In this document: positions 1 to 46,559 of the stretch, piece by piece | How the letters are laid out: each line of letters begins with the position of its first letter | How positions within the stretch are numbered: position 1 is the first letter of the stretch | From: a virus | Lineage: Duplodnaviria > Heunggongvirae > Uroviricota > Caudoviricetes | Virus record (IMG/VR): IMGVR_UViG_3300017989_002952 | Coordinates: 18,891-82,890 of that record | Strand: one strand, 5' to 3' | DNA length: 64,000 nt | Position numbers and translations under genes: made by a program | The notes under the pieces: model-generated | The model's database searches: none | What the model saw: the letters and a program-made list of their open reading frames with translations, nothing else | Told to the model about the DNA's origin: nothing

Positions 1-945
1 GCCTATAGCACCTGGACAGAATGCTTGTTCAATCACAGCGCCTACCAATTCACGATCTGCCAACATGGGAAATTTTCCCTTCGGATGAAACGTGATTGTA
101 AATTCAAAGTAAAATGGAGCACGAATCAGTTCAAAGAATTGAAATCCAGCTACCAGACCAACTGGTTGTTGACCATCAATAACGATGTCGTCAGCGGTTA
201 TCAAATCAGTGAGAGTATAACCACTTCCTCTACCAGGTTTTCCCTTCATCGTTTTATACATCTTGACGTGATGTGGGTTCACCTTAACAAAATTCTTGAG
301 ATGTTTGATAGAAGGCCACCCTGTATGAGTATGACCTGGACCGTAAATTTTGAATTCCATAGGAAATGCATCATTTATGGTATCTCTAAATGCTGCAAAT
401 ATTGTATGTGCACCTACGATCGGGATTGGTTTTCCATTTTTGACCTGCTGGTGATCCCTATGAAAAACATTCAACGGAGCTTTGTACTCTGACTCCTCTT
501 CTTCCATTGTTTTTAGTACTTGCCTTGCAAGATTACAGTCGTCAAGGGTGACGGTTTTTCCCTTTGACTCAATGAGTATCTCTACTTCTTTTGCTGTAAT
601 CTTGTCTCGCAGTCCAATTACTCCCTTACTAGGCTTCTTGACTAACACTTTGATGTCATCTGCTCTTGATCCAGAATAATCTCCGAAGACACAAGCAAGA
701 CATTTAACTGCCCAAGGACGGTTCTCTTGGCAGTTAACGAATGGTACGGCTGGAATGATTTTCATCTTTTCCAACTTTTCCGTTGTCTTCTCAACATCAA
801 GCGTCGCCTTCTTAAGTTTCTTCTCCGCTTTGGTTGTAGCTTTGACAGTAGCCTTTAGACTCTTTTCGAGATCCTTTTGCTGCTTCTGTAAAGCTTTAAC
901 TTTAGCTTCCTCATCCTTTACCTTTTGACTCTTTTTCGGTGGCAT
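1..945 (-). CDS. hypothetical protein, partial (C-terminus beyond window start); Lys-rich coiled-coil-like N-terminus
   Basis: Reverse-strand ORF open from ATG at 945..943 to position 1, read by hand (MPPKKSQKVKDEEAKVKALQ...). AAGGAGGG RBS lies 8 nt upstream. It is absent from the ORF track because no stop falls in the window. Confidence 0.45.
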   Translation of the reverse strand, partial: MPPKKSQKVKDEEAKVKALQKQQKDLEKSLKATVKATTKAEKKLKKATLDVEKTTEKLEKMKIIPAVPFVNCQENRPWAVKCLACVFGDYSGSRADDIKVLVKKPSKGVIGLRDKITAKEVEILIESKGKTVTLDDCNLARQVLKTMEEEESEYKAPLNVFHRDHQQVKNGKPIPIVGAHTIFAAFRDTINDAFPMEFKIYGPGHTHTGWPSIKHLKNFVKVNPHHVKMYKTMKGKPGRGSGYTLTDLITADDIVIDGQQPVGLVAGFQFFELIRAPFYFEFTITFHPKGKFPMLADRELVGAVIEQAFCPGAIG

Positions 946-1389
946 ATGCACACCCTCCTTTATTTTATTTGTCGCACGCCTCTGGTGCCGACACTGTATA
1001 ACAAAAATATACGTCGGTGGTATGGCGGATGTGTTTAAACCACCGACGTCTTTCTATCGACCACTCCATTACCTGTGCAGGGCGGGTTGCCTAGTGTTGT
1101 GAGGAATTATATTCGTCCACCCTGACATTGACCCACCCCTATCTCCTTATCCAATGAATAAGCTCGAGTCGAAACCGGAACAAACCGAGTGGGGGAGAAA
1201 GCACAGGTAATGGAGTGGCCGACGGACTGCTCGACGGCGTTATCAATCGTTCTCAGCCAGAAAACGTTAACATGCCGGACGCCCTATTGTTGACGACTCG
1301 CGAAAGGAGTATATGTCACGAGGGCAGAGCATTTCTATCGACCACTAACATTATTCAAACAAAGAAATATATGGATTTTAAATTATAGT

Positions 1390-1467
1390 CAGCTGAGAGC
1401 GAGTGTACACAGGGCGCTCTTTCAAATTTAGAGTTGGCAACCGCCTTGGCACAAACTCGCTCTACTG
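1390..1467. repeat. copy 1 of duplicated ~77-nt structured element (cagctgagagcgag ... ctcgctctactg)
   Basis: Shares 5' cagctgagagcgag, internal ggcgct / gcaaccgcc / ggcaca blocks and 3' ctcgctctactg with the 1713..1787 copy. The termini form an 8-9 bp long-range stem (gagagcgag/ctcgctct). Confidence 0.5.
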
Positions 1468-1712
1468 TCTTCCAAAGGGACATACCACACACGCCCCATA
1501 TATACATATGTGGCACCCTATGGAAACATCCTGATGAGTGGCCGTACCAAGTCTACTCGACGGCAGAGGAAGGCGCTCCAAAGCCGGGCGCCCCAAATGC
1601 TGCAACAGTCACCTCTCGCGAAATGTCCGGCGCATGCGGGCGTAGTATCTTGATACGACCACTCATGATTTTTGGAACAATTAATAATATATGAAAACGT
1701 GTAACTTAAAAA

Positions 1713-1787
1713 CAGCTGAGAGCGAGCTACGCCAATGGCGCTAATATTAAGTATAAGCAACCGCCTAGGCACAGTCTCGCTCTACTG
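1713..1787. repeat. copy 2 of duplicated ~77-nt structured element
   Basis: Same conserved blocks as 1390..1467, with a variable interior. Confidence 0.5.
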
Positions 1788-1993
1788 GCGACCCACAAAG
1801 GCTATGCGAAATGGAACCCCGACTCCAAGACGCACCCTTTGATGAGCCACAAATCTTGGTGGATGAACTCAGATTTATTCCGAAAACAACCGACCAAGAA
1901 ATTGAGATCTAAGAAAGTGCCAGTCAGGAGGATCGACTCCTGACTAGCAGGGGTGTAAAGAATGCATACTGGCTAAACAATATGTCTTCTTAG

Positions 1994-2010
1994 TAAATAA
2001 TATATATAAA
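1994..2010 (+). promoter_or_regulatory. candidate promoter: TAAATAATATATATAAA motif ~95 nt upstream of the 2106 gene
   Basis: A recurrent AT-rich TAATATATA-type motif is found upstream of several operon starts in this window. Confidence 0.3.
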
Positions 2011-2105
2011 GGAGTAGTTTTTACCAAAAAACTTCCATTCTAATTCAGCACCATTTCCAGAACAAAATATAAAGTTCATAGTTTGTAAATTCACAAGGAG
2101 ATGTT

Positions 2106-2771
2106 GTGATGGAAGAAATAAAAGTCGTGGTAAACGATAAGTACACGGAGCATTGTCTCCACGATGCTGTGGTGAAACGACCGTCTGGTGATAGAAAACC
2201 AGAAGGGTATGTTGAGATATACGAGGTTAAGGACGGCGAAGATAAAAGACTTATAGGGAAGCAAAATCTTGTTGTTTATCAGGGAAGAGAATGGATTGCA
2301 GAGAGGATTTTCAATTCAAATAATACAAATACGCCAACCGGTGAGACTGAATTCATTAGTTGGTTGGGTCTTGGTGAAGGTGGTGCTCCAGTAGGAGATC
2401 CGCTAAATCCTACAGCACCCTCAAGTCTCGACACAGACTTAGATACCGAAGTACCAATCAACACAACTGGCGCCACTCTCGGAGATCTCAGAGGTGGTAA
2501 TTATTACAAGCACCCATTTGATTCAATAGAGTTTCAACAGGATGCTGCTAATTCAAATAAGTGGTTGATTGTAAAAGTTACAACAACAATTGGTACTAAC
2601 GATGCAAATGGCTCTGGAACCCAAAATTTGAATGAAGCTGGCTTATTTACAGCAGCCAGCGCTGCTGGAGGTTATTCTGGTAACTTCTTTATATTTAGCA
2701 GAGTTACGTTCCCTACAATTGTTAAAGATACTTCACGCCAATTGATGTTTATGTGGTATATTTATTTCTAA
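2106..2771 (+). CDS. hypothetical virion/tail-associated protein (221 aa)
   Basis: ORF with AAGGAG RBS. Probable start at ATG 2109 (GTG at 2106). First gene of the plus-strand tail module, immediately upstream of the sheath gene. Confidence 0.5.
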   Translation: MMEEIKVVVNDKYTEHCLHDAVVKRPSGDRKPEGYVEIYEVKDGEDKRLIGKQNLVVYQGREWIAERIFNSNNTNTPTGETEFISWLGLGEGGAPVGDPLNPTAPSSLDTDLDTEVPINTTGATLGDLRGGNYYKHPFDSIEFQQDAANSNKWLIVKVTTTIGTNDANGSGTQNLNEAGLFTAASAAGGYSGNFFIFSRVTFPTIVKDTSRQLMFMWYIYF

Positions 2772-2864
2772 TGATTCAAATAATTTATAGAGTTTAGAGA
2801 GTAAGGTAGTCGCTCGTAGAGTTATCGAAAATAGACAAAAAATTAATTCAGGAGGAATTTCATT

Positions 2865-4847
2865 ATGGCGACGCCTATTTCACCAGGTGTGTACACTAAG
2901 ATAATTGACCTTAGTACATACGTTCAAGCAGTGCCTGGAACAGTAGGAATGATTGCAAGCTTGACGGAAAAAGGTGAAGACAATGTTCTGAAGTTTTTCG
3001 GTTCAAGAAGTGAGTTTATCTCAGAATGTGGTGAACCAAATATCTCCACATATGGGAAAAATTATGGTCAGGGTCCTTATTGCGCATACAATTATCTAGG
3101 AGAATCTGGATCCTTGTATCACTGCCGACCAATGCCTGACGACGCTTCTTACGCCAACTTCAAATTGGATGTAAGTCTTGCACCGGCTGACGCAACTTCA
3201 AGCGTAGTTATCACCTACATTGACGAAACTAATGCTAACTCACAATCCGAGCTTATTACACAACTAGCTCAATCTGGTAACACCTATCCACTGTGTGTTC
3301 TCCGTCCAATCGGTAGAGGTCAGTACTACAATGGTCTTGGAATCCGCTTGACAGAGCACGCCAACCCACTATTCCTCGGAGTATACAATCTCGACATCTA
3401 TGAAAAACAATCAGATGACAGTGAAGTGATTATTGAATCTTTTGCTGTATCATTTGATCCAAGAGCATTTGACGATGCTGGTGACTCACTCTGGATCGCA
3501 AGTGTCCTTGAGAATTTCTCTGCTGTTTTGAGATGTGAGATGAATATTGATGATGAAACTTATACTTCAGGATATGATCAAATCATCAAAATATTTGATA
3601 ATGAAATTGGTTATGTAACAGTTGATCTAAATGCAGCATCTGCAACACTAACCGACACCAAACAAGACTTCTCTGAATGGGAAACAGCCGCAGCTACATA
3701 TGAATATTGTGTAGAAGCTGTTGACGCAAGAGGAAATAAATTGTATGGGTGGTTGGGTAACGCAGCTGGAACAGACAATGAAGAAATCGAAATTTATGAT
3801 GGAAGATTGGCTGGCGCTGCAAGAGGTTGGATCGGTGACACAACTGCATTTGACGACACAGGAGAAGTCACATACAATGTGAAGAAATCCTACACAAGTG
3901 TCGCTTCTGCATTTACATCAGCAGATCCAGTGCCATTAAGAAAAGGATCTGAAGGTTCTCTTCTTGATTCGTCTGGCGACCTTGACACAGCAGTTGCAAA
4001 ACAATTGTTGCAACAGGCATATCTCGGACAATTAACAAGTGCAATTGATGGTTCAACACTGGTTGAAGATATTCTCGATCTGGAGAATATTTACTTTACT
4101 ATCGTCTTTGATTGTGGTTATCCATCAGATGTAAAGACATCCATCAGCACCTTGGTCCAGACCAGACGTGATTGTGTTGCTATTATGGATAACGGAGACA
4201 ACTCCGATTATTCTACAGCGATCAACACAAGAACAAACACAAATACATTCAATACTTATTTTATTGCATTGTATGAATCTTATAACAAAGTCAGCGACAC
4301 ATGGACTGGACAAGATATTTGGGTGTCCCCTGTATTCCATATGTCATATCTTCTCCCAAGAAATGATAGTGTGGCTGAAATTTGGTGGGCAGCAGCAGGC
4401 TTTAATAGAGCAGCTATTGACACCATTAAGGAATTGCGCTACAATCCAAGAATTGGTCAAAGAGATAATATGTATCTCAAGCAATTGAACCCGATTGTGA
4501 AATTCAATCCTGGTTATACTGTTTGGGGACAGCTCACATCTCAAGCTAAAGCAAGTGCATTGCAGGATCTTAATATCGTTCGACTGGTTCTCTATATCAA
4601 GAGAGCTCTTGAGCAATACTGCAGATACTTCATCTTTGAGATGAATGACCAGATTACTTGGAATACCGTAGCAGGAGATATTCTAGACTTCCTCGAAGAC
4701 ATCAAGAAAAAGAGAGGTCTCTACTCCTACTCAGTAGAAGTCGGAGCCACATCTTATGAAATAAAGAGGAAAACATTCCATGTGAATGTAACTCTAGAAC
4801 CGACAAGAGTTGTAGAAAAGATCGAACTCAATTTCTACATTAAATAA
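2865..4847 (+). CDS. tail sheath protein (contractile tail)
   Basis: 660 aa, typical sheath size. The N-terminus MATPISPGVYTKIIDLS matches the conserved sheath N-terminal xSPGVYxxxxDxS motif. GGAGG RBS. Same module as a GpW/gp25-like wedge gene. Confidence 0.55.
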   Translation: MATPISPGVYTKIIDLSTYVQAVPGTVGMIASLTEKGEDNVLKFFGSRSEFISECGEPNISTYGKNYGQGPYCAYNYLGESGSLYHCRPMPDDASYANFKLDVSLAPADATSSVVITYIDETNANSQSELITQLAQSGNTYPLCVLRPIGRGQYYNGLGIRLTEHANPLFLGVYNLDIYEKQSDDSEVIIESFAVSFDPRAFDDAGDSLWIASVLENFSAVLRCEMNIDDETYTSGYDQIIKIFDNEIGYVTVDLNAASATLTDTKQDFSEWETAAATYEYCVEAVDARGNKLYGWLGNAAGTDNEEIEIYDGRLAGAARGWIGDTTAFDDTGEVTYNVKKSYTSVASAFTSADPVPLRKGSEGSLLDSSGDLDTAVAKQLLQQAYLGQLTSAIDGSTLVEDILDLENIYFTIVFDCGYPSDVKTSISTLVQTRRDCVAIMDNGDNSDYSTAINTRTNTNTFNTYFIALYESYNKVSDTWTGQDIWVSPVFHMSYLLPRNDSVAEIWWAAAGFNRAAIDTIKELRYNPRIGQRDNMYLKQLNPIVKFNPGYTVWGQLTSQAKASALQDLNIVRLVLYIKRALEQYCRYFIFEMNDQITWNTVAGDILDFLEDIKKKRGLYSYSVEVGATSYEIKRKTFHVNVTLEPTRVVEKIELNFYIK

Positions 4848-4932: not shown

Positions 4933-5316
4933 TTATGAGAAGCTAAAAGGTGGATAGTATTCTCTACCCTTCTTTATCTCTGGTTTAGGTAAATCTTTAA
5001 CTTTTTTGACATTTCCCCCACTCATTTTTTGATCACATTGAAGGTTGGTAAAGGTAAACATTTCACTCAACTCTTCAAAAGACAACTTATTGTGTTCATA
5101 ATGCCATAGTACTTGTTCTAGGATCATACCCACATTAATAGGTGGGTCTTCATCTTCTGGTTTTGGTCTAGCTATCAACCACGTCTCACCGTTAATAGTA
5201 ACCACCGCATCATCTTCAAAAGTTCTTGAAGACATTAAACTGATAACTACCTCACCATTATTAACCACCGCAACGACCCCACCTTCAGTAACTTTGTATT
5301 TAATGTCGATGTCCAT
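4933..5316 (-). CDS. hypothetical protein (127 aa)
   Basis: Clean ORF with a GGAGGG RBS. Confidence 0.45.
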   Translation of the reverse strand: MDIDIKYKVTEGGVVAVVNNGEVVISLMSSRTFEDDAVVTINGETWLIARPKPEDEDPPINVGMILEQVLWHYEHNKLSFEELSEMFTFTNLQCDQKMSGGNVKKVKDLPKPEIKKGREYYPPFSFS

Positions 5317-5400
5317 TTTATACCCTCCTAAAGAATATAATAAATTATCTTCTTAGTTATTAATATATATAGAAATGGAGATTTTGCGGACAACAAAAAT

Positions 5401-5520
5401 TGGTAGAGAGCGTGGTAATTCAAACCACATCATACCCCACAAATGTCGCGCTCATTAGTGGAGGCAGGTATGACCCGAAGCTGGACTCTCTACCACGAAG
5501 TTGGAAGGGTTCGAACCTCC
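5401..5520. other. GC-elevated intergenic structured element: 10-bp perfect long-range stem (tggtagagag 5401-5410 / ctctctacca 5486-5495) followed by a T-arm-like palindrome GGTTCGAACC
   Basis: Seen directly in sequence. GC is locally higher than the flanks and there is no credible ORF. Confidence 0.4.
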
Positions 5521-5655
5521 GCAAACTGACCCCTGCTTTCTAGCCTCAAAAGCATGTCGACGTGGGTAATCAGACGCCGGGCAGTTGTCCATTTTTGAAC
5601 AGTGCCTCACCTGGCTCTCCGCAAAAGACAATTCACTATGTGCAAATCATCTTTC

Positions 5656-5675: not shown

Positions 5676-5763
5676 AAACGCCTTTCCAATATCGCTTTAC
5701 ATATAGAACATAATATAAATTCGGAGAAGTATGAATAACTAAACTCATGAAAGGAGAGAAATC

Positions 5764-5958
5764 ATGATACCAGAATATGGTTCAATGTTAGAAGCACTGA
5801 AGGAATCGTTCGAAGCTTTTGAGACAGCAGCTGAAGGCGGGAAAGAAGGACGAGGTAGTAAAACTCGTGCTTTGGAAGCCAGAAAACTCAGTATGCAGAT
5901 CACAAATCAACTCAAAGATTTTCGAGCTCTTTCAATCGCTAACGACAAAGCAAAATAA
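5764..5958 (+). CDS. small basic hypothetical protein (64 aa)
   Basis: AAAGGAGAG RBS 6 nt upstream. Followed by a strong hairpin. Confidence 0.45.
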   Translation: MIPEYGSMLEALKESFEAFETAAEGGKEGRGSKTRALEARKLSMQITNQLKDFRALSIANDKAK

Positions 5959-6009
5959 CAAAAAAGAGGGTCCCTTAAGCTAATAACAGCCGGTCCTCCC
6001 TCGACCGAG

Positions 6010-6048
6010 TCCCACCCAGATATTCGGGGTCTGGGTGGGACATTTTCC
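6010..6048. terminator. bidirectional intrinsic terminator
   Basis: 11-bp stem tcccacccaga / tctgggtggga with a 9-nt loop, followed by a cattttcc T-tract. It sits between the convergent 5764..5958 (+) and 6055..7077 (-) genes. Confidence 0.55.
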
Positions 6049-6054
6049 GTTGTA

Positions 6055-7077
6055 CTATGTTGAGATAATGATCGTACCATCCTTTTCCGCTCTGAGCGAA
6101 CTTCCCCTTGGAAGGTGTTTCATAACCTCGAGAACTTCTTGTATTCGACCGTTACCCGGCATTGTCGAGACAAGTTTTTTCACTTCAACTTGACCGGCAA
6201 GGCACTCAATAACTTTCTTAATATGGGAACCAATAGTCTCAACCCCACCGTCCGACATGGAGTCAAGGTTAGTGATTTCCATATTTAAATGTTGTTTACA
6301 GAACTGGTCCAATTCCATAGCGATTTCTATCAAGATTTTTTCTGCCGTTACAGTGTCAGGATGTCTTCCTGTGGAAACATCTTTCTTTTTGGTAGCTTTC
6401 TTTTTGTTCCTAACTAATTCATTGGTTTTGTCTCGAACAGTGGCACCCAGTTGAATCGGGTCTGTATTGTTGAAGATACCATCACGAAATTTCAGCTCGA
6501 CTGTCTTGTCGAGTTGTTTGGTTTGCGCATTACCAAGCAACTCAAGAACTTTGAAGACAGTTCTACATTTAGTTGTGGTTGATGCCAACTTGAGATCAAG
6601 CCCATGCTTCTTTCCAAGACCAACAACCGCCTTTGCAAGTATGGGCGGCGTCATTGGAGCTCTTTCACCTCTTGGAATTTCAACACCCTCATCTTTCAAA
6701 ATTTGGGTTATTCCAGCATTTTGAAAGTTGGCGGCAACTGATATGATAGACGCTTCCATATCTACCCGTTCTTTTGTCCTGTTCTTAGGCGTATACATCG
6801 TAAAAAGATTTTCCATTTTTTCAAGTCTCCTTCCTTCAACTTCTGCGATTTCGTCCTTTGTGTAAACTTTTACTAGTCCATGGAATTCAGATTCAGGTTT
6901 GTGACTTCGAAATTTTATACACGGTGGAGTTTTTTGTTTTTTCTGCTCCATAATGATTTTTCTTCGAAGACATTTCGCTTCCTCTGTTTTTTCATCATCT
7001 TCTAATTTTCGTAGATGTTCAGCGACAGGAACGCCATTGATTGTAATCCCCGCCCATCTTCCTTCATCTTCATTCAT
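6055..7077 (-). CDS. hypothetical protein (340 aa), Lys-rich, possibly nucleic-acid binding
   Basis: Long clean ORF with no recognisable catalytic motif. Confidence 0.45.
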   Translation of the reverse strand: MNEDEGRWAGITINGVPVAEHLRKLEDDEKTEEAKCLRRKIIMEQKKQKTPPCIKFRSHKPESEFHGLVKVYTKDEIAEVEGRRLEKMENLFTMYTPKNRTKERVDMEASIISVAANFQNAGITQILKDEGVEIPRGERAPMTPPILAKAVVGLGKKHGLDLKLASTTTKCRTVFKVLELLGNAQTKQLDKTVELKFRDGIFNNTDPIQLGATVRDKTNELVRNKKKATKKKDVSTGRHPDTVTAEKILIEIAMELDQFCKQHLNMEITNLDSMSDGGVETIGSHIKKVIECLAGQVEVKKLVSTMPGNGRIQEVLEVMKHLPRGSSLRAEKDGTIIIST

Positions 7078-7092: not shown

Positions 7093-7464
7093 CTATTCCC
7101 ATTCGACGGGATCATCTTCTACTACTTCAAATTTTACGACTTCAAGACCAACGGGTCCAAGATCATAATAAAACCGCATACCTTTCAAGAAACTGTCGAT
7201 TAGAAGCCACCTTATATATTCAGGGATATCTCGCTGGTCGTTGAACATACTGGTCCATTCCTCAATTTGAAAGAAACGTGAACCAGTTTTCTTGATATTT
7301 GAAGCATCCCAGAATCTAAGATCGGGAAACTCAGAGCGACGTCGCTCTAAGAACTCATTAAAAAGAGTTTTGAACTCCTCCACTGTTAAATCCTCGCTTG
7401 ACTTGATTGAAAGAATAAAACTAGCAGAGGAACTATTCGTAACTTCGGATACTCGGAATTTCAT
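7093..7464 (-). CDS. member 1 of MKF[RK]xSEVTNSSSTSF N-terminal-tag family
   Basis: Starts MKFRVSEVTNSSSASF (ATG at 7464, GGAG RBS). The longer ORF to 7494 is probably read-through from an upstream Met. Overlaps the 3' end of the upstream radical-SAM gene. Confidence 0.55.
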   Translation of the reverse strand: MKFRVSEVTNSSSASFILSIKSSEDLTVEEFKTLFNEFLERRRSEFPDLRFWDASNIKKTGSRFFQIEEWTSMFNDQRDIPEYIRWLLIDSFLKGMRFYYDLGPVGLEVVKFEVVEDDPVEWE

Positions 7465-8578
7465 CGTGTTTTTGGATCTCCCCGAGCACCTCAAGCGGGC
7501 AACAATAGTTATTTTCTCTCAATATTTTTCTGAATAAATTAAAAGGTTCACTATTCGCCCACACGTCTTTCATTGTCCGTCTTAAGTGCTTACCTGGTTT
7601 AAGAGTTATACCATGGTTGACATGGTCGCCTATTGAACACGGAACTAATCTGAGGTCAGGAGTGATGTAACAAGATTTTCTACCTGCGCAACAGAAATCA
7701 AAAGTAATTTTCTCAAATGAACTCAGTTCGCCGTATTGTGTGATGACGTGCTTACCAAGACATGGGTCCATACCTGCTACAAATTTTCTGAGATCTTGGT
7801 GTTTCATGGCTTCAGCAAATATTTTAAATTCGTTGTTATTAAGCCTCCAAAGCTTCTCAGGTTTGTTTCTACCGCACCCCTGTGGTTTATACAACAGGAA
7901 CGTGACCCCAAACAACTTGTCTAAATCAATCTTACCATCCCAAACGTCTTTTCCGTGTAGCATATCAACAGCTTTAGGAAAAGAAAGTTTGTCCAAGACT
8001 AGTTGTATGCTGGTTTTAACATTCGCCTTCATAAGTCTGTTCAGTGCTGAGTAGGTTTCTGGTTGACCATAATCACTAACCGCAACACTTGGGCAGTATT
8101 TTTTGGCGGTAGTTATCTGTTCATCTGTTAAACGAAATCCGCTCGTTGTAAATGTAGGTGCAATGTTATTCTTTCGACAGAAAGCAACCATTCTTTCAAA
8201 ATCAGGATGGTCATTTGGATCGCCTCTTCCGCCAAGAGCACATTGTGTGATATATGGAGCAGATTGTTTAATGACTACTTTAAAATCGTCAAAAGACATA
8301 TGAGGTTCTTTTTTCCGACCCTGATAACAGTTCTCGCAGCCATTTTGACAGTGTCCCATGACACCAATATCTAACAGAGAAGGAAATTCAAGACCAAAAG
8401 GCTCGGTATGATCTCCTAAACCCTCAAGAATCTCATGTCCATTCATAGCGTTAAACAAAATAACATATGTTTCCTTTGAATTCACTATCACTTTTGTCCA
8501 CAGTTGCCGTGAAAGCGAGTGTTGTTCTTCTGTCCACGAACTCTTGTTGATGTTTAGCGGAATTTTTTTAATCTTCAT
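7433..8578 (-). CDS. radical SAM enzyme with Cys-rich C-terminal (SPASM/twitch-like) region
   Basis: CX3CX2C = HCQNGCENCY; GGRGDP resembles the GGE SAM-binding motif; C-terminal CCAGRKSC...VPC cysteine cluster. Confidence 0.65.
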   Translation of the reverse strand: MKIKKIPLNINKSSWTEEQHSLSRQLWTKVIVNSKETYVILFNAMNGHEILEGLGDHTEPFGLEFPSLLDIGVMGHCQNGCENCYQGRKKEPHMSFDDFKVVIKQSAPYITQCALGGRGDPNDHPDFERMVAFCRKNNIAPTFTTSGFRLTDEQITTAKKYCPSVAVSDYGQPETYSALNRLMKANVKTSIQLVLDKLSFPKAVDMLHGKDVWDGKIDLDKLFGVTFLLYKPQGCGRNKPEKLWRLNNNEFKIFAEAMKHQDLRKFVAGMDPCLGKHVITQYGELSSFEKITFDFCCAGRKSCYITPDLRLVPCSIGDHVNHGITLKPGKHLRRTMKDVWANSEPFNLFRKILRENNYCCPLEVLGEIQKHDEIPSIRSYE

Positions 8579-9581: not shown

Positions 9582-9693
9582 ACAGTCCTTCTAATGAGTA
9601 ATATATATAAGTATTTTGTTCATTCAAAACTAATCCGTCCTGTTCATATACTTAGAACAAATTATAAAGTTTACTAGTGCGGAGTTCAAACTA

Positions 9694-27478: not shown

Positions 27479-27719
27479 CTGTCCTCCTTTATTAACAACG
27501 TAAAATCGATGGAAGAATCTCCTTTATAGTTTGTTCTAAATAACGTAATGTTTTTGGTTATTTCTAAACAATTATATATATTACTTACTGAGAGGAGTCA
27601 TTGTCTTTTTAATGACTCGCCTACGTATCCTATACTATCTGACTTCAGTCAGTTTTTTCCTTTGATGCATGAAGGAAAAGCAAGAAGGTTCACCCCGAAC
27701 AGGAACCTTCTCCGACTTT

Positions 27720-27846
27720 GAGATACGATCCGTCGTCTAGTCAACGACATGTTCTACTCAAATGATTTTGAGACCCCCCGAAACTGCTGGAAGAAGCCGG
27801 CCCCAAAATTATTTGATTGTTCAAGGATCGTATCTCGGTTCGAACC
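27720..27846. other. GC-elevated structured element in the terminase 5' leader: 12-bp perfect long-range stem (gagatacgatcc 27720-27731 / ggatcgtatctc 27825-27836) followed by GGTTCGAACC palindrome
   Basis: Seen in sequence. An additional 8-bp hairpin gaaggttc/gaaccttc lies at 27684-27710. Confidence 0.4.
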
Positions 27847-27899
27847 TTCGGTTTTGACTAGGGCCGCTGGCTCTAGTCCTAAAAGTTTTTGTATATTTT

Positions 27900-29117: not shown

Positions 29118-29271
29118 TACGTAAACTCCCTTGTCTTTATTTTTTGTTCGGGAAATTTACAACTATATATATAAACTAAGTAATAAATTACTTTTAGAGT
29201 TGGTCCGTAGAAACGACTGTTCTAAATATATTAATAACTAAGAATATAAATTGTTTACAAGGAGGTGTGTC

Positions 29272-41825: not shown

Positions 41826-42155
41826 CTAAGGAACCAATTCAGGTCCTACGGTTGTCTCTACTCCTATACTTGTGTATTCTCCTGCAGGATCAGGATTGTG
41901 TTGAGGCGCCGTCGTGGCTTTAAAGCACACATTTTCAACACCGCCGATAGGACAGAGTTGATATTCGTCTTCAATAAAGAATCTATCACCTGGTTTCAAT
42001 CCTTCAATACCATCTCTCAAGACTGCTACTGTCCCTGCTGACTCTACAATTAAAATTGTCAACTTACCACGATTGTCAATTGTATATTCTCTTTTTTCAA
42101 CGATCATGTTTTTCTCCTTATAGAAAGTAATGGTAATCAAAGCCGCCCTCAACAC
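41826..42155 (-). CDS. hypothetical protein (109 aa)
   Basis: ORF only. Confidence 0.35.
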   Translation of the reverse strand: MLRAALITITFYKEKNMIVEKREYTIDNRGKLTILIVESAGTVAVLRDGIEGLKPGDRFFIEDEYQLCPIGGVENVCFKATTAPQHNPDPAGEYTSIGVETTVGPELVP

Positions 42156-43038
42156 CCTTGTAATTGACCGCTATTGCTTCTGAGGTGTGAATACTTTCCT
42201 CATGAATACTCTTAACTACCCAATCACGAACACCAGGTAGGGCGTCTAATTGATCGCTTATACCTCGAATTGCATCCTCGACAAATATTGGATTTTCTCC
42301 AGCGATACGAGCAATCTCTTGTTCATCTTCCCTTTTGATTATTGGATATGGAATGGTCTTGATTGCTCTCTCAACACATTCTACAAGATCCTCTAACCAC
42401 ACATAATGATTCTCTTCCTCCATATCTTTTTCAGTAATGATATGGGCGAAAGACCGCTGCGCATGCGGAAACCCATTGCTCCCTTTCTTATCCAAATCTT
42501 TACAGAGTTCGGCAGAACAAGGACAGTAGCTGGCATATTGAACTATAACACCTTGAAAGAATCGAAATTCAAGAAGGTCGCCAAGTTTGCCTGGATACTT
42601 AATAAGCTGTCCTTCAAATCTGCTATCATGGAAGATGGGGAATTCATTATCCGACAGCGCAGACGGTCTATTTATCGGAAGTTTAAAATCGAACCGCATA
42701 TAACTCTCTGTTGAACCAACTCGCTCCATCAGGTCCAAAAGGATACCCCGTATTAACTCTTTCTTCAAAGGTAAATCCAAGTATTTCTTTAATGTCCTCA
42801 GAAGCCGGGACATTGAGATTCCCTTTGTATCAGCGTCGAGATTGGTTCTCATTGATACATTAGCAGTCATTGGTTTAAATCCTCCATATTTTGACTCTAA
42901 TGAAAATGGAACCATAACGTTCTCAACACCAACTTGTCTAATCAGTCTCCTTATCCTCGGTTTTGTCATCTGAATGTCCGGAAGGTTTGAAGAAGAGCGG
43001 TTGTCCGCCTTTGATTGGTCGGAGTTTCTTTCTGACAT
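42118..43038 (-). CDS. T-fold GTP cyclohydrolase FolE2/MptA-like protein (tentative)
   Basis: ~300 aa. The YCPCSAELC...FPHAQRS...E cluster has spacing reminiscent of the Cys/His/Glu metal site of type-2 GTP cyclohydrolase I. Recalled from memory, not verified. Confidence 0.3.
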   Translation of the reverse strand: MSERNSDQSKADNRSSSNLPDIQMTKPRIRRLIRQVGVENVMVPFSLESKYGGFKPMTANVSMRTNLDADTKGISMSRLLRTLKKYLDLPLKKELIRGILLDLMERVGSTESYMRFDFKLPINRPSALSDNEFPIFHDSRFEGQLIKYPGKLGDLLEFRFFQGVIVQYASYCPCSAELCKDLDKKGSNGFPHAQRSFAHIITEKDMEEENHYVWLEDLVECVERAIKTIPYPIIKREDEQEIARIAGENPIFVEDAIRGISDQLDALPGVRDWVVKSIHEESIHTSEAIAVNYKGVEGGFDYHYFL

Positions 43039-43555
43039 CTAAATTCTCCTTGTGTTTTTGTATAATCGCATCAAACACATTTTCAGGGACAAACTTTTTA
43101 ACCATATCTTCCCAACCATTCGGACCAACCAAGTCTTTTACTGTACTTGAACTAATGTCAATCAGAGAATGTGGCGGGATGAGAAACACAGTAGTGATAC
43201 CCGGATTCATCCCGCCATTTATCTGACGCATTGTTGATTCGTAATTATAATCTTTTATAGACCTGATTCCTCTCAGAAGATAATTCGCTTTTTGTGCTTG
43301 TGCGAAGTGAATAAGATATTCATTCCCAAGTAACATCGTGGTCACATTTGGGAATATGCTTGTAATTTCCGTTACCATTCTCAACCGTTCAATGTTGTTG
43401 AAATATGGTGTTTTTGATGGGTTTGTTCCAATAGCAACGATGAGTTTTTCAAATAATTTAGACCCCTGAGAGATCATCCAAAGATGACCTTCAGTTGGTG
43501 GATCAAAACTACCTGGATATATCGCTATCTGTGGATGAGGGTATGTTTCGTTCAT
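42938..43555 (-). CDS. phosphopantetheine adenylyltransferase (CoaD)-like cytidylyltransferase-family nucleotidyltransferase
   Basis: IAIYPGSFDPPTEGHLWMI matches the (H/T)xGH nucleotidyltransferase motif (GTFDPITNGH in PPAT). LRGIRSIKDYNYESTMRQINGGMNP and the ISSSTVKD block match PPAT's C-terminal motifs. Confidence 0.6.
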   Translation of the reverse strand: MNETYPHPQIAIYPGSFDPPTEGHLWMISQGSKLFEKLIVAIGTNPSKTPYFNNIERLRMVTEITSIFPNVTTMLLGNEYLIHFAQAQKANYLLRGIRSIKDYNYESTMRQINGGMNPGITTVFLIPPHSLIDISSSTVKDLVGPNGWEDMVKKFVPENVFDAIIQKHKENLDVRKKLRPIKGGQPLFFKPSGHSDDKTEDKETD

Positions 43556-46500
43556 TTGGATTCACTCCTATTGTAAGTAAATATGCTTCTAGTAATTTCA
43601 CAGATTCTGCAACCATCGACTCATCATTACCATCTTCCTTAACCAAGTCTGTCTCAATTGTATTACGAAGGAACTTATTTTTCAGATCTATACAATCTGA
43701 TTTGGTTGTCAAGAATTCAGAGATGTTGTATGGAGCATCATGTCCAATAAGACAAGCTGTTTCCATTTCTCCAAGTCTTTGACCGCCCTTATTTTTTCTT
43801 CCCGCTAATGGTTGCAATGTTCTTCTTGCATATGAACCAATACCTCTTGCTGCTAATCTGGATTCAGCAATATGGACCATTCTGAAGAAGTACATATAAC
43901 CAACCGCAATTGGATTGACCAAATGCTGACCAGAGACAGGATCAAACACTTTCTGCTCAAATTTTGTATTTGTATACTCCAAGACTTTTTCAAGAATTGT
44001 CGCCGTTACAGATGAGAAAGGTGGCTGTATTAATGTAAGTTCGTTTATGAACTTTTCATCAATTATATCAGGGAGTTGTTCAAAGAACTGATATGTATAC
44101 CATTTTGTCTCGGTATTATCAACCAATTCAAAGAAACCTGCAAGATATCTTTTGAGTTGAGCCTGTCCTTTCTTGTTAGCAATCATCTCCAACAAATTCT
44201 TTTTAAGGTCTTCAAGCGCTAGACTAAGATGTAATTCAAACAACTGCCCGATATTCATCCTGCTAATAATTCCCAATGGATTTATACATATATCTACGTG
44301 TCGTCCATCCTCAAGTTGAGGCATCATTTCATGTGGAACGATGGTTGAGATAACTCCCTTATTCCCATGACGATTTCCGACCTTATCTCCAACTTGTATT
44401 TTGCGAGTGTATAAACCAAACATCTCGACTTGGATACCATTGATCTTTTCTTTCTTCGCTTTGTATTTTCTCGTGTAACTACTCTTATCGAGTCCGTTAT
44501 CACGAATGAACCGGGTGGCATCTTCTTTCGACAGATGCTCTTTAATAATTCCCTGTAACTCTTTTTCTCGTTGGACTTGAGATTCTATTTTTGCTTCAAC
44601 CCAATCTTTAAATTCTGGAATATCCTCATTCCATTGGTTCGCATAAATATTTACTTCGCTAATTACAACAGACTTCTTTGTCGTCAGCGGGATGGGTTCT
44701 TCAAATATAGAGCAGAAATCAGTCGGTCCACCTGGGACCTTCTTCATAATTGCATATGGTTCACCAACTGCAATTTTGTCAAATACATCTGGAAGAGGCT
44801 TGTAGTTATTTTCCTCAAGACTGAGCAAGACTTTATCCGGTGTTAGTGTAAAGGAGAAGTCCCGATAATGGACTGAGGTAAACAATCCTTCATTCACAAG
44901 TCTGTCAGAAATAACAATACCATCCTCATAGTTATAACCGTAGTAGACCATCACAGCAGTTAGCAAATTCTTCCCAATATTGATATTACCTTGGGTGCAA
45001 TAATTACTTTCTGCTAAGATATCCCCTGCCTTAACTTTATCACCCTGTTTGACATATACATTAATTAAATCCATATTTTCAACATAGATTTTTCGATATC
45101 CAATGTTAAATACATCGACTGTATTATCAACATATGCAACAATCAGATACTTGTCATCAATGAATACAACTTCGCCATTTTTCTTGGCTCGTTTTACAAA
45201 CTGGGTATGATCTGTGTATAAACCTTCACAACCAGATCCAATCATTGGTGTATCAAACTTCTTCAACAAGATAGCCTGACGCATCTGAGATGATGCCATT
45301 TGGAGTCGAGTTTGGTCATCGTGCTCCAGAAATGGAACCATTGATACCGGAATAGATATTGGAGATTTTTCTAATGCCTCATCTGTAAATCTGAGATTCT
45401 CATCGAGTTTTGTGTTGACTAACATATTCTGCAAAACTCCACAATTATCTCGGTCAGGTGTATCAACAGGACACATACGACCAAACATTGTGTCGCTTAG
45501 ATCCCTAAGATGCTCTGGAACATTCTCTCTTTTAAATCCACCAGGACCAACCAAACTGGTTCTTGACAGCTTGGTTAACTCTTCAATCGGGTTAATCGAA
45601 AAGTCAAATTGCACAATGTCAGAAACATTACACTCTGTCAAGATTTTTGTCGAATTCACATTGAATTTGGCGTTTCTTGTTGTTCTATGCGCAAGGCATA
45701 GATCAAATACAGCCTTGGAGACTTTCGATGTGATGATATATTCAAAACATCTAACTCTCTTATTTTGAAAATCTGTATCATCATAATTTGGATCTTGCAT
45801 CACATCCACAAACTCTTCAATAACCGAATCCGTCTTAAAGAATTTAGCAGATAATGGATCTACTTTCAACATAAGGTCAAGAGCATACATCAACGATTCA
45901 CCCTTCGCTTTGAAATTATACTTAGAGTAAATCCTTCCAATTTCTCGCAGGATATCGTTTTCGCTAAAGTCCTCATCTGTTGCATCATACATCTCTTTTA
46001 AATCATACAACATTTTACCGTAAATTGTATCCTTGTCTGGATTAAGAGTATCAAAATCAAATCTCTCGTTTAGGGCTTCAGGTCCATACTTTGCAAACAT
46101 AATCATACAGAATGGAACTCTTTTGCCCAATACACTCAGATACACATACGGTGGTTCTTTATTTTCGAACAACATCATTGTGGCAACATTTGTCCGTATC
46201 TTGATAGCTTTACCTCTAGTCACAACTGGAATATCAAATAGCTGAAACAGAGGAATCTTCTTTCTGCCATTAATAACCAAATAGTTATCATCAATGAGCT
46301 TTGGAATTTGCATTGAGAGGTCTATGTTTGACGTTCCTCTTGTCAGTTTAATTACAAGATTTCTCCGGAGAGTTTGATGTAACTCCCCGGATGCCATCTT
46401 AGAATCTTTAATTCCAAAATCTGAAATCTCAAAACCAATTTCTGTAACTGGTTGAAGAATTTCGTTAATTGTCTTTTCTAACTGTCCATACTCAGTTTGT

Positions 46501-46559
46501 CGAATCTGAAAGATATTACTTTCTTCATCAACCTTGAACATAGGATTGACAAATTTCAA
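43509..46559 (-). CDS. rpoB: multisubunit-type RNA polymerase beta subunit (RpoB-like), compact 1016 aa
   Basis: Contains GDKVGNRHGNKGVIS (the invariant beta-subunit active-site signature), 1016 aa. TTG start codon at 46559 with an AAGGAGG RBS. Confidence 0.85.
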   Translation of the reverse strand: MKFVNPMFKVDEESNIFQIRQTEYGQLEKTINEILQPVTEIGFEISDFGIKDSKMASGELHQTLRRNLVIKLTRGTSNIDLSMQIPKLIDDNYLVINGRKKIPLFQLFDIPVVTRGKAIKIRTNVATMMLFENKEPPYVYLSVLGKRVPFCMIMFAKYGPEALNERFDFDTLNPDKDTIYGKMLYDLKEMYDATDEDFSENDILREIGRIYSKYNFKAKGESLMYALDLMLKVDPLSAKFFKTDSVIEEFVDVMQDPNYDDTDFQNKRVRCFEYIITSKVSKAVFDLCLAHRTTRNAKFNVNSTKILTECNVSDIVQFDFSINPIEELTKLSRTSLVGPGGFKRENVPEHLRDLSDTMFGRMCPVDTPDRDNCGVLQNMLVNTKLDENLRFTDEALEKSPISIPVSMVPFLEHDDQTRLQMASSQMRQAILLKKFDTPMIGSGCEGLYTDHTQFVKRAKKNGEVVFIDDKYLIVAYVDNTVDVFNIGYRKIYVENMDLINVYVKQGDKVKAGDILAESNYCTQGNINIGKNLLTAVMVYYGYNYEDGIVISDRLVNEGLFTSVHYRDFSFTLTPDKVLLSLEENNYKPLPDVFDKIAVGEPYAIMKKVPGGPTDFCSIFEEPIPLTTKKSVVISEVNIYANQWNEDIPEFKDWVEAKIESQVQREKELQGIIKEHLSKEDATRFIRDNGLDKSSYTRKYKAKKEKINGIQVEMFGLYTRKIQVGDKVGNRHGNKGVISTIVPHEMMPQLEDGRHVDICINPLGIISRMNIGQLFELHLSLALEDLKKNLLEMIANKKGQAQLKRYLAGFFELVDNTETKWYTYQFFEQLPDIIDEKFINELTLIQPPFSSVTATILEKVLEYTNTKFEQKVFDPVSGQHLVNPIAVGYMYFFRMVHIAESRLAARGIGSYARRTLQPLAGRKNKGGQRLGEMETACLIGHDAPYNISEFLTTKSDCIDLKNKFLRNTIETDLVKEDGNDESMVAESVKLLEAYLLTIGVNPNERNIPSSTDSDISR

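What the first reader, a model, noticed from the sequence alone, without database searches (positions are those of the whole stretch)
946..2105. 1.1 kb GC-elevated non-coding region with a duplicated ~77-nt stem-enclosed element and terminal-hairpin repeats
No credible ORF exists here (the two track ORFs at 1434-1772 overlap each other on opposite strands). Two copies of an element, 1390-1467 and 1713-1787, share cagctgagagcgag...ggcgct...gcaaccgcc(t/a)ggcaca...ctcgctctactg. The ends pair as an 8-9 bp stem and the interior is variable. A 15-nt repeat tttctatcgaccact occurs at 1052 and 1333. A perfect 10-bp hairpin acgtcggtgg/ccaccgacgt lies at 1010-1050. A TAATATATA motif sits at 1682. The length (~77 nt) and closing stem are tRNA-sized, but I could not thread a canonical cloverleaf. 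They may be paired sRNAs, tRNA-like decoys or ribozyme-like RNAs.
Basis: seen in the sequence. Interest (0 to 1): 0.55.

Follow-up and report, generated by a model that had tools for sequence, protein, structure and literature searches.

The report
Tandem structured non-coding phage RNA genes

Summary
Region 946-2105 is non-coding and GC-elevated. It holds two copies of a 75-78-nt stem-enclosed element, a 15-nt repeat and an 11-bp hairpin.

The interpretation needs correcting. The RNA strand is the minus strand. In the hairpin helices, 8 pairs are G.U on minus and would be A.C mismatches on plus. Every unit also folds better on minus. A conserved promoter-like motif (P1, 2008->1986) points into the region; other copies of P1 are followed by an RBS and a start codon.

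The region is an array of three paralogous units of about 280-350 nt. A typical unit has a closed three-way-junction domain, a middle hairpin, and the 77-nt element as its 3' hairpin. The array ends at hairpin 1011-1049 plus a U-run.

A relative (L061/L011/L012) carries two homologous units with compensatory changes. Other relatives carry unrelated structured RNAs, or a small protein gene, in the same slot.

There is no tRNA, no Rfam family, no ribozyme, no coding signal and no host homologue. The best reading is a new family of accessory, probably trans-acting, stable phage ncRNAs. Function is inferred only.

The parts
1986..2008 (-). P1 promoter-like motif TATATATATTATTTACTAAGAAG, pointing into the non-coding region. 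Inferred start of the array's transcription.
   Evidence: Exact match to the consensus. The same motif at 5371->5349, 9609->9587 and 29223->29245 is followed within about 20-35 nt by an RBS and ATG on the motif's strand, which fixes its orientation. In the loci scanned (window and relatives), 9 of 19 copies are followed by SD plus ORF. Promoter activity is inferred, not shown.
1713..1985 (-). ncRNA unit C. It comprises a 5' stem (1986-1994 pairing with 1909-1917) enclosing hairpin 1918-1949, hairpin hpX 1855-1898, a middle hairpin of about 1790-1850, and the 77-nt hairpin C.
   Evidence: Minus-strand fold z -8.5 against -6.0 on plus. Folds. hpX is homologous to L061 13186-13240, with one compensatory pair.
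1713..1787 (-). It is followed on the minus strand by UUUUU (1708-1712), so it looks like an intrinsic terminator.
   Evidence: (75.2 bits).
1676..1693 (-). Junction J3 (minus: CATATATTATTAATTGTT). A weak P1-like motif about 20 nt upstream of the LS-B domain.
   Evidence: This motif form occurs on the minus strand only at 1693, 1373 and 1013, apart from one match inside a gene at 14752. Compared with P1. Promoter role is inferred.
1534..1666 (-). LS-B: a closed three-way-junction domain with an 18-bp closing stem (1534-1551/1649-1666).
   Evidence: I3; both mismatches are G.U on minus. Fold. Homologous to 1213-1346 and L061 12845-12995. alifold gives -25.0 on minus and -14.6 on plus.
1468..1527 (-). 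Middle hairpin of unit B.
   Evidence: Fold -29.1 kcal/mol. Aligned with the unit C and L061 counterparts.
1390..1467 (-). It forms the 3' end of unit B.
   Evidence: minus z -4.15; 91.3 bits.
1358..1373 (-). Junction J2 (minus: CATATATTTCTTTGTT). A weak P1-like motif about 20 nt upstream of LS-A1.
1213..1346 (-). LS-A1: a paralogue of LS-B. Its 5' closing arm (1332-1346) is one copy of the 15-nt repeat.
1057..1222 (-). A 22-bp long-range stem (1057-1078/1201-1222) that encloses a hairpin and a diverged third copy of the 77-nt hairpin (1073-1143). The 3' arm of the stem reuses the 3' arm of LS-A1, so the two pairings exclude each other.
   Evidence: I1; the one mismatch is G.U on minus. Fold. 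Weak covariance-model hit at 1143->1073, 14.1 bits, E 1.4, so the third copy is tentative.
1051..1065 (-). Second copy of the 15-nt repeat. It is a truncated extra copy of the LS 5' arm (minus: AGUGGUCGAUAGAAA).
   Evidence: Read directly from the sequence against 1332-1350, 1650-1668 and L061.
1001..1049 (-). Terminal hairpin (11 bp, 1011-1049) with the conserved loop AUCCGCC, followed on minus by AUAUUUUUGU (1001-1010). Inferred terminator of the array.
   Evidence: I7. The motif GGUGG..AUCCGCC..CCA(C/G)C is conserved in L061/L011 and L157/L158/L132, with changed stem pairs. In L157/L158 it is flanked by A- and U-runs.
1000..1013 (-). Junction J1 (minus: CGTATATTTTTGTT). A weak P1-like motif upstream of the RBS and ATG (945) of gene 1-945 (-).
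2060..2074 (+). Context: P2 motif GAACAAAATATAAAG, about 45 nt before the 221-aa virion-protein gene. It lies back to back with P1.
   Evidence: The same motif lies before the starts of the genes at 5764, 9694, 27478(-) and 29117(-).

Best explanation
The region is a tandem array of three paralogous genes for stable, highly structured non-coding RNAs, transcribed on the MINUS strand.

Transcription (inferred). It starts at a P1-class promoter (2008->1986) that lies back to back with the late-gene promoter of the 221-aa virion protein. Weaker P1-like motifs sit at the two unit junctions (1693, 1373). Transcription ends at the terminal hairpin plus U-run (1049->1001), just before gene 1-945's own weak promoter and RBS.

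Unit anatomy (shown by folding and comparison). A typical unit is about 280-350 nt. It contains a domain whose 5' and 3' ends are locked in a 10-22-bp stem (a three-way junction), a middle hairpin, and the 77-nt element. The 77-nt element is therefore the conserved 3'-terminal hairpin of a unit. It is not a free tRNA-sized RNA.

Role of the 77-nt hairpin (inferred). It acts as a terminator, a processing site and/or a 3' protective structure.

Status in the genome (shown by comparison). The array is accessory cargo. In relatives, the same promoter slot holds two homologous units (L061), unrelated structured RNAs (L015, L157/158) or a small protein gene (L017).

Mechanism (my best guess, unproven). 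The RNAs accumulate as stable molecules expressed with the non-structural genes and act in trans. The repeated modules would give several copies of one folded surface, the conserved internal loops of the hairpin (5' GUGCC-NN-GG(C/U)GG ... AGC(G/A)CC 3'). That surface would bind or titrate a protein, as a decoy, sponge or RNP scaffold.

Confidence by step: about 0.85 that these are minus-strand structured ncRNA genes; about 0.3 for the trans-acting protein-binding role.
For: Strand:
- In the 77-nt hairpin helices of 3 independent copies, plus one helix from the L012 variant, the pairs are 61 Watson-Crick + 8 G.U + 0 mismatches on minus. The same pairs on plus are 61 + 0 + 8 A.C mismatches.
- All 3 mismatches in the 22-bp and 18-bp stems are G.U on minus.
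- The whole region folds at -392 kcal/mol on minus and -342 on plus.
- Every unit has a better z-score on minus.
- alifold gives -22.0 vs -15.0 (hairpin) and -25.0 vs -14.6 (LS domain) for minus vs plus.

Promoter orientation:
- There are 5 strong P1 copies. Three are followed by an RBS and ATG, and two by structured non-coding sequence.
- In the loci scanned, 9 of 19 P1 copies are followed by SD plus ORF.

Conserved structure:
- L061/L011 (neighbouring protein 90% identical) has the hairpin with AGAGCGAG/CUCGCUCU changed to GGAGUGAGG/CCUCACUCC.
- 95.8% of cells are paired, 4 pairs have double changes, 0 of 500 shuffles reach the covariation score, and slid controls give 29-57% paired.
- The L012 variant turns a G.U pair into A.U.
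- L015 and L016 differ by 11 substitutions in 40 nt. Those in the stems are G.U<->G.C switches or compensatory.

Independent gene, not a leader:
- The downstream gene differs between phages: an unknown protein in the window and a ParB-like protein in L061.
- In L157 the short structured region and its terminator hairpin face a convergent gene.
- Homologues of the window's downstream protein lack any RNA nearby.

General design:
- Distant relatives show P1, then a structured RNA with paired ends, then a hairpin plus U-run, then the next gene, in some cases behind a second P1.

Cargo nature:
- L017 has a 60-aa gene in the slot.
- Of the 75 IMG/VR relatives examined, all but three have an upstream gap of at most 372 nt, and most have 110-330 nt. 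The large gaps tested are AT-rich and not comparably structured.
Against: - There is no transcript evidence of any kind. Promoters, terminators and RNA ends are all inferred from sequence.
- The comparative set is tiny (3 independent hairpin copies and 3 LS copies). The covariation is suggestive, not statistically strong.
- Hairpin B and the L061 hairpin lack a good U-run, so the terminator role is not uniform.
- L061 has no P1-like motif before its ParB-like gene. There the RNAs could simply be a long leader.
- No sequence motif is shared among the lineage-specific RNAs of different relatives apart from U-runs. That weakens the idea of one specific protein partner.
- No partner protein or target was identified. 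No antisense target above chance was found in the window.
Confidence: 0.5

Rival explanations
1. Cis-acting structured leader. The whole array is a long 5' untranslated leader (tandem attenuators or riboswitch-like switches). It would control read-through from P1 into the downstream accessory gene (1-945 in the window, the ParB-like gene in L061).
For: - The array is on the same strand as, and directly upstream of, a gene in both the window and L061.
- L061 has no P1-like motif between the RNA and the gene.
- Unit A has mutually exclusive pairings: the LS-A1 3' arm pairs either with its own 5' arm or with 1057-1078. A terminator-like hairpin follows.
- L092 has P1, a short hairpin leader, a terminator and then a gene.
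Against: - The downstream genes are unrelated.
- In L157 the short structured region ends at a terminator facing a convergent gene.
- The homologue of the window's gene that was looked up (P0130, L162) has only a ~140-nt intergenic region upstream, with no such RNA.
- The RNA sequence turns over completely between close relatives, unlike ligand-binding aptamers.
- P1-like motifs between the units, and before the gene, suggest separate transcription units.
Confidence: 0.2
2. Generic structural role. The GC-rich hairpin modules would serve only as RNase III or exonuclease processing and protection signals, or as an insulator or spacer between the back-to-back P1 and P2 promoters. The RNA product would have no sequence-specific function.
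For: - Closing stems of 18-26 bp are of RNase III substrate length (RNase III length rule from general knowledge).
- Different lineages carry unrelated sequences of the same design in the same slot.
Against: - Most relatives manage with roughly 110-370 nt and no such RNA.
- Internal-loop sequences of the hairpin are conserved between paralogues and L061, while the stems co-vary.
- Copy number is amplified to 3 units.
Confidence: 0.12
3. A DNA-level element: a replication origin, a recombination or packaging site, or MITE/REP-like inverted-repeat DNA. The palindromes would act as DNA.
For: - Inverted repeats alternate with AT-rich linkers at a divergent-transcription junction.
- The locus is a hot spot that varies between relatives.
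Against: - The mismatches are strand-asymmetric. All 8 + 3 are G.U on one strand, which double-stranded DNA sites would not select for.
- Transitions preserve the pairs.
- The element occurs nowhere else in the 64 kb.
- No target-site duplications are seen.
- Tandem Repeats Finder reports nothing, so there are no iterons.
Confidence: 0.05
4. One reading: free ~77-nt RNAs on the plus strand that act as tRNA-like decoys or small ribozymes.
For: The size and the closing stem are tRNA-like. A CUGAUGAG string occurs on the plus strand at 1531.
Against: - ARAGORN finds 0 genes in the window and in relatives.
- Rfam gives no tRNA, tmRNA or ribozyme hit even at E<=10.
- The fold is an extended hairpin, not a cloverleaf.
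- The plus strand would carry 8 A.C mismatches in the helices.
Confidence: 0.03
5. A decayed or frameshifted protein-coding gene.
For: ORFs of 84-86 aa exist at 1434-1694 (+) and 1518-1772 (-).
Against: - There is no SD sequence, and no protein-level conservation with the nucleotide-homologous L061 region.
- There is no similarity to any gene that relatives carry in this slot.
- The changes are structure-compensating rather than synonymous.
Confidence: 0.02

Closest known systems
Phage T4 stable RNAs 'species 1 and 2' (rnaC/rnaD) in the tRNA gene cluster (from general knowledge)
   Same: They are phage-encoded small stable structured RNAs of unknown function. They lie in an accessory, variable region and are made with the early or middle genes.
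   Different: No tRNA genes are nearby here. The units are 2-3 times larger, tandemly duplicated, and each has promoter-like and terminator-like signals. There is no sequence or covariance-model relationship.
Large ornate phage- or prophage-borne RNAs GOLLD and ROOL (Rfam; cryo-EM paper PMC12286853, seen only as a search listing with the start of its abstract)
   Same: They are long, GC-elevated, intricately folded non-coding RNAs without a known biochemical function. That GOLLD and ROOL are carried by phages or prophages is from general knowledge.
   Different: No Rfam match at gathering score or at E<=10. Here there is a chain of small independent modules, not one large fold. The distribution is restricted to a few closely related uncultured phages.
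Adenovirus VA RNA I/II and EBV EBER1/2 (from general knowledge)
   Same: They are tandemly duplicated viral RNAs of about 160 nt with a long terminal stem that pairs the 5' and 3' ends. They are abundant and act as protein-binding decoys. This is what I think the phage RNAs may work like.
   Different: Those are eukaryotic Pol III transcripts. No homology exists, and no bacterial dsRNA sensor or partner was identified here. The comparison is analogy only.
Phage T7 RNase III processing hairpins such as R1.1 (from general knowledge)
   Same: They are irregular hairpins of about 60-80 nt, with internal loops, at the ends of transcription units. After cleavage they leave a protective 3' stem.
   Different: The T7 sites separate protein-coding cistrons. 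Here no cistrons lie between them, the internal-loop sequence is conserved, and cleavage was not tested.
Transcriptional riboswitches and attenuator leaders
   Same: The order is promoter, closed multi-helix domain, hairpin with U-run, gene. Unit A has alternative pairings.
   Different: There is no known aptamer family. The downstream genes are unrelated. The sequence is not conserved beyond very close relatives.

Membership tests
tRNA / tRNA-like / tmRNA | Cloverleaf (acceptor, D, anticodon and T arms) detectable by a tRNA finder. | tested here: not met
   ARAGORN finds 0 genes in the window and in L061, L015, L157, L158, L161, L018, L011 and L012. The minimum-energy fold is an extended hairpin.
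tRNA / tRNA-like / tmRNA | Match to the Rfam tRNA or tmRNA covariance models. | tested here: not met
   No hit at gathering score or at E<=10 on 850-2200.
Any curated RNA family (Rfam 15: 6S, Y RNA, GOLLD, ROOL, HEARO, OLE, riboswitches, ribozymes and others) | Covariance-model score at or above the gathering threshold. | tested here: not met
   0 hits in the window and in 6 related loci. The best sub-threshold hit is a plant miRNA model at 19.6 bits against a threshold of 54.
Self-cleaving ribozymes (hammerhead, twister, pistol, hatchet, HDV-like) | Conserved catalytic core within the family's fold. | tested here: not met
   No Rfam ribozyme hit at E<=10. The CUGAUGAG string at 1531 is on the non-RNA strand and lacks a GAAA partner.
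Intrinsic (factor-independent) terminator | A G+C-rich stem immediately followed by a U-run on the transcribed strand. | tested here: inconclusive
   Met for the terminal hairpin 1049->1011 plus AUAUUUUUGU, and for hairpin C plus UUUUU. Not met for hairpin B or for the L061 hairpin. The simple scan reports only hairpin 1949->1918 on minus, because the other loops exceed its limit.
Riboswitch / attenuator leader | Association with a conserved downstream gene or pathway. | tested here: not met
   The downstream genes are unrelated in the window and L061. No downstream gene exists on that strand in L157. Homologues of the window's gene lack the RNA.
Riboswitch / attenuator leader | Mutually exclusive helices that link the sensor domain to a terminator. 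| tested here: inconclusive
   Unit A has exclusive pairings (1338-1346 with 1214-1222, against 1201-1222 with 1057-1078). I found no alternative pairing that involves the terminator hairpin itself.
MITE / REP-type repeated DNA | Many dispersed copies with terminal inverted repeats, usually with target-site duplications. | tested here: not met
   Copies occur only inside this locus. No duplications flank them. The mismatches are strand-asymmetric G.U pairs.
Retron msr/msd or other reverse-transcriptase-linked ncRNA | An adjacent reverse-transcriptase gene. | tested here: not met
   The neighbours have no reverse-transcriptase domain. P0128 has no Pfam family. The L061 neighbour is ParB/GmrSD_N-like, with weak scores.
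Short-repeat RNA arrays (CRISPR array, ToxI-type antitoxin) | Regular head-to-tail short repeats of about 28-40 nt. | tested here: not met
   Tandem Repeats Finder returns 0 rows. The period is about 320 nt and the units are diverged.

The most novel reading that the evidence does not exclude
The RNAs could be the bacteriophage counterpart of adenovirus VA RNAs or EBV EBERs. On this reading they are abundant, terminally paired, tandemly amplified decoy RNAs. They would disarm a host RNA-sensing or RNA-cutting defence (for example an RNA-activated CBASS-type cyclase or a defence ribonuclease), or they would sequester one form of RNA polymerase at the P1-to-P2 (early-to-late) switch, much as 6S RNA does. 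Their complete sequence turnover between related phages would then reflect an arms race. The recurrent 'P1, structured RNA, terminator' cassettes would be a general RNA-based accessory toolkit of this clade of phages that encode their own polymerase.
Probability: 0.12. Interest if true: 0.85.

Novelty: new variant of a known kind. Interest (0 to 1): 0.55.

Why it matters
Phage-encoded non-coding RNAs are far less explored than phage proteins. This clade is uncultured and about 145-270 kb in size. It encodes its own beta and beta' RNA polymerase subunits and 7-deazaguanine pathway genes.

In this clade a promoter slot next to the late structural operon is filled interchangeably with small protein genes or with lineage-specific, highly folded RNAs. 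That treats RNA as accessory cargo equivalent to early proteins.

If the RNAs act in trans, they would be a new class of phage effectors: decoys, sponges or polymerase regulators. Even if they do not, the locus has practical value. It gives a defined pair of back-to-back promoter motifs and a set of compact, independently folding RNA modules for experiments.

Tried and rejected
1. tRNA, tmRNA and Rfam searches found nothing.
2. GenBank phage DNA searches, near and distant, gave no match. The window is a novel phage.
3. The motif GCAACCGCCTWGGCACA in IMG/VR gave 5 hits, all unrelated coding sequence.
4. A gapped hairpin pattern gave 1 chance hit in IMG/VR and 57 hits in metagenomes, of which only L061 is real. 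In 185,579 species genomes it gave 66 hits, all GC-rich chance matches, so no host homologue was found.
5. I first read the AT-rich motif as a plus-strand late promoter, with the junction motifs as plus-strand promoters. I rejected this once the full motif was seen to be followed by RBS+ATG on the opposite strand at three places and a separate late motif, P2, was found.
6. I suspected a trans 'kissing' complementarity between 1074-1091 and 1436-1453. It is better explained by paralogy, a diverged third hairpin copy.
7. A search for antisense targets gave 12-mer complementarities at chance level.
8. A shared motif among the lineage-specific RNAs: only U-runs are shared.
9. Covariance model R1 over about 90 related loci found no further copies.
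10. Microdiversity of the window's own strain: L161 is identical, so it adds no information.
11. Structure prediction of the neighbouring protein P0128 gave pLDDT 38.6 and is unusable. PDB, Pfam and PADLOC gave nothing significant. A passing thought that its C-terminal GGRRxANxG motif might mark a Cas6/RAMP-like RNA binder is untested.
12. The first shuffle script timed out.
Full report
CONTEXT

The window comes from an uncultured large myovirus. It encodes a tail sheath (2865-4847), a baseplate wedge protein, a large terminase and a tape-measure-like protein. It also encodes its own multisubunit RNA polymerase beta (43509-46559, minus) and beta' (47019-49727, minus), FolE2 and two radical-SAM enzymes. 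No GenBank phage is similar at the DNA level. Its polymerase beta subunit is only 22-28% identical to anything in the phage collection.

Region 946-2105 lies between two divergent genes:
- gene 1-945 on the minus strand (full protein P0128, 349 aa, no known domain);
- a 221-aa virion structural protein gene on the plus strand (2106-2771).

OBSERVATION

- The region is GC-elevated: 0.46-0.535 against 0.34-0.43 in the flanks.
- It has no credible ORF. The short ORFs lack Shine-Dalgarno sequences and are not conserved at protein level in the nucleotide-homologous region of a relative.
- It holds no remnant of the genes that relatives carry in this slot.
- The duplicated inner motif occurs twice, against 0.08 expected.
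- New: the region is periodic. Repeat pairs are spaced 313-326 nt apart. Pairwise alignments show three diverged units: A about 1000-1375, B about 1376-1695, C about 1696-1990.
- New: there are two long-range stems, of 22 bp and 18 bp.

WHICH STRAND

Four independent lines point to the minus strand.

1. Mismatch type. All three mismatches in the two long stems are G.U on minus and A.C on plus.
2. Hairpin pairs. I made a hand-checked structural alignment of the three independent hairpin copies (window B, window C, L061). For the L012 variant only helix H4, where it differs, was counted. The four helices contain 61 Watson-Crick + 8 G.U + 0 mismatches on minus. The same pairs on plus would be 61 + 0 + 8 mismatches.
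3. Folding. The region folds at -392 kcal/mol on minus and -342 on plus. Each unit has the better z-score on minus, both here and in relatives. L015 reaches z -12 on minus. Consensus folds favour minus: -22.0 against -15.0 for the hairpin and -25.0 against -14.6 for the LS domain.
4. Promoter orientation. The AT-rich motif next to the late gene is part of a 23-nt consensus, TATATATATTAnTnACTAAGAAG, which I call P1. It has five strong copies in the window. Three copies (5371->5349, 9609->9587, 29223->29245) are followed, on the motif's own strand, by an RBS and ATG within about 20-35 nt. The other two are followed by structured non-coding sequence: this region (2008->1986, minus) and 27596-27885 (plus).

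Across the loci scanned, 9 of 19 P1 copies are followed by SD plus ORF. The late structural genes have a different motif, P2 (GAACAAAnTATAAAG), about 45 nt before their start codons. P2 lies back to back with P1. Promoter function itself is inferred from this conservation and position.

ANATOMY (minus strand, 5' to 3')

Unit C:
- P1;
- a 5' stem (1986-1994 with 1909-1917) around hairpin 1918-1949;
- hairpin hpX (1855-1898);
- a middle hairpin;
- 77-nt hairpin C (1787->1713), followed by UUUUU.

Junction J3 follows. It is a weak P1-like motif.

Unit B:
- LS-B (1666->1534), a three-way junction closed by 18 bp;
- a middle hairpin (1527->1468);
- 77-nt hairpin B (1467->1390).

Junction J2 follows.

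Unit A:
- LS-A1 (1346->1213);
- a 22-bp helix (1222-1201 with 1078-1057) that reuses the 3' arm of LS-A1. It encloses a hairpin and what the hairpin model weakly detects as a third, diverged copy (1143->1073; 14 bits, E 1.4);
- the terminal hairpin (1049->1011), followed by AUAUUUUUGU.

Junction J1, the RBS and gene 1-945 follow.

It is present at 1346, again as a truncated extra copy at 1065, and in variant form at 1666. That is why both copies can pair with 1214-1222.

The 77-nt element is an extended hairpin. It has a 4-bp outer helix, an 8-9-bp main helix, a 5-bp helix (GUGCC), a 4-bp helix (GGCG/CGCC) and a variable tip. It is not a cloverleaf.

RELATIVES

The 221-aa protein has more than 200 homologues.

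The closest relative is P0001 (90% identical; L011, L012 and the longer L061). It carries a 700-nt intergenic region with:
- the same terminal hairpin, with changed stem pairs and the loop AUCCGCC conserved;
- one LS domain;
- hpX;
- a middle hairpin;
- one 77-nt hairpin whose stems carry compensatory changes.

On the model-fitted alignment, 95.8% of cells pair and four pairs change on both sides. None of 500 shuffles reaches the covariation score. Slid controls give 29-57% paired. This rests on four sequences, three of them independent, so it is supportive rather than conclusive. The L012 variant converts a G.U pair into A.U.

L015/L016 (70% identical) carry at least four different stem-enclosed modules, with closing stems of 10-26 bp. 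The two samples differ by 11 substitutions within 40 nt. Those in the stems are G.U<->G.C switches or compensatory.

L157/L158/L132 (63% identical) have about 170 nt of unrelated hairpins plus the conserved terminal hairpin, flanked by A- and U-runs.

L017 (78% identical) has a 60-aa gene behind P1 instead.

Of the 75 IMG/VR relatives examined, all but three have an upstream gap of at most 372 nt, and most have 110-330 nt. The large gaps tested are AT-rich and not comparably structured.

P1 copies elsewhere in distant relatives are followed by structured RNAs with paired ends and then a hairpin plus U-run. In some cases a second P1 and a gene come next.

The slot behind P1 is therefore a cargo site, and structured RNAs are a recurrent cargo. 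Their sequences are lineage-specific; only U-runs are shared.

WHAT IT IS NOT

- No tRNA or tmRNA.
- No Rfam family, even at E<=10.
- No ribozyme core.
- No short tandem repeats.
- No reverse transcriptase next door.
- No dispersed copies.
- No homologue in 185,579 species genomes, or in metagenomes beyond L061.
- No antisense target above chance in the window.

MECHANISM

Shown:
- conserved minus-strand RNA structure;
- modular paralogous units;
- variability of the slot's content between relatives.

Inferred:
- transcription from P1 and the junction motifs;
- termination at hairpin C and at the terminal hairpin;
- stability conferred by paired 5' and 3' ends.

Best guess:
- The RNAs act in trans as protein-binding RNAs.
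- Three things favour this over a cis leader. The downstream genes are unrelated. In L157 the corresponding, non-homologous short structured region stands alone at a convergent junction. Protein genes substitute for the RNAs in the same slot.
- The leader model remains a serious rival. It fits L061, which has no promoter motif before its gene, and unit A, which has exclusive pairings.

VERDICT

This is a real, previously undescribed family of phage structured non-coding RNAs. The function is unknown. Interest is moderate.

Noticed in passing
window 27596-27885 (+): A second P1 copy (27573-27595, plus) lies back to back with the terminase late promoter. It is followed by about 290 nt of structured non-coding sequence (z -6.9 on plus for the 27479-27899 gap). 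This includes a module closed by a ~14-bp stem and ends in hairpin 27856-27880 plus a U-run. It is probably another ncRNA gene, unrelated in sequence to the array.
   Followed up: partly
window 5400-5650 (-): This structured non-coding stretch lies between a P1-like motif (5675->5655) and the P1 that drives gene 4933-5316. A 10-bp stem (5401-5410/5488-5497) closes a cloverleaf-like multi-branch fold. On minus, GGAGG-UUCGAAC-CCUUC looks like a tRNA T-arm. ARAGORN and Rfam report nothing there.
   Followed up: partly
window 5508-5517 and 27837-27846: The 10-nt palindrome GGTTCGAACC occurs exactly twice in 64 kb, against 0.03 expected. Both copies lie inside the two other P1-linked non-coding regions. 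Its meaning is unknown; it could be a T-loop-like motif or a dimerisation palindrome.
   Followed up: no
window 1986-2074, 5349-5371, 5706-5720, 9587-9669, 27522-27595, 29135-29245: There are two conserved promoter-like motifs, often placed back to back about 50-60 nt apart. P1 (TATATATATTAnTnACTAAGAAG) precedes non-structural genes and ncRNAs. P2 (GAACAAAnTATAAAG) lies about 45 nt before late structural genes. They may be the recognition sites of the phage's own RNA polymerase or of different polymerase forms.
   Followed up: partly
window 42118-49727 and 7433-8578, 59297-60373: The phage encodes unsplit multisubunit RNA polymerase beta (1015 aa) and beta' (901 aa), only 22-28% identical to known sequences. 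It also encodes FolE2 and two radical-SAM proteins, which suggests 7-deazaguanine DNA modification.
   Followed up: partly
L015 / L016 positions 58-98: Two samples of one phage are identical over 650 nt except for 11 substitutions clustered within 40 nt of one RNA module. The substitutions keep the fold, through G.U<->G.C switches and compensatory pairs. This is a hypervariable patch in an otherwise fixed RNA.
   Followed up: partly
window 1-945 (-), protein P0128: The 349-aa protein downstream of the array has a Lys-rich coiled-coil N-terminus and a conserved C-terminal domain (motifs FHPKGKFPxLADRELV and GGRRxANxG). It has no Pfam, PDB or PADLOC match and only two distant homologues. The AlphaFold model was unusable, with pLDDT 38.6.
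   Followed up: partly
L061 11720-12691 (-): In the closest relative, the gene downstream of the RNA array is a ParB-like (DGQQR motif) protein with weak GmrSD_N and DpdB similarity. That could link it to the 7-deazaguanine system.
   Followed up: no
L117 about 3285-3578 (-), L078 about 2570-2814 (-), L119 about 3750-3910 (-), L092 about 3030-3125 (-): In distant relatives (44-56% identical neighbouring protein), P1 is followed by GC-elevated structured RNAs whose ends pair, then by clean hairpin plus U-run terminators. In L117 and L078 a second P1 and a gene follow.
   Followed up: partly
window 5990-6045: A strong hairpin (GTCCCACCCAGA...TCTGGGTGGGAC) with T-rich flanks lies between the convergent genes 5764-5958 (+) and 6055-7077 (-). 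It is probably a bidirectional terminator.
   Followed up: no
L015 1334-2095; L018 11833-12858: Relatives carry DUF7487 / MTES_1575-type endonuclease-like genes inserted beside the sheath gene. This is consistent with free-standing homing endonucleases and a generally plastic structural-gene region.
   Followed up: no
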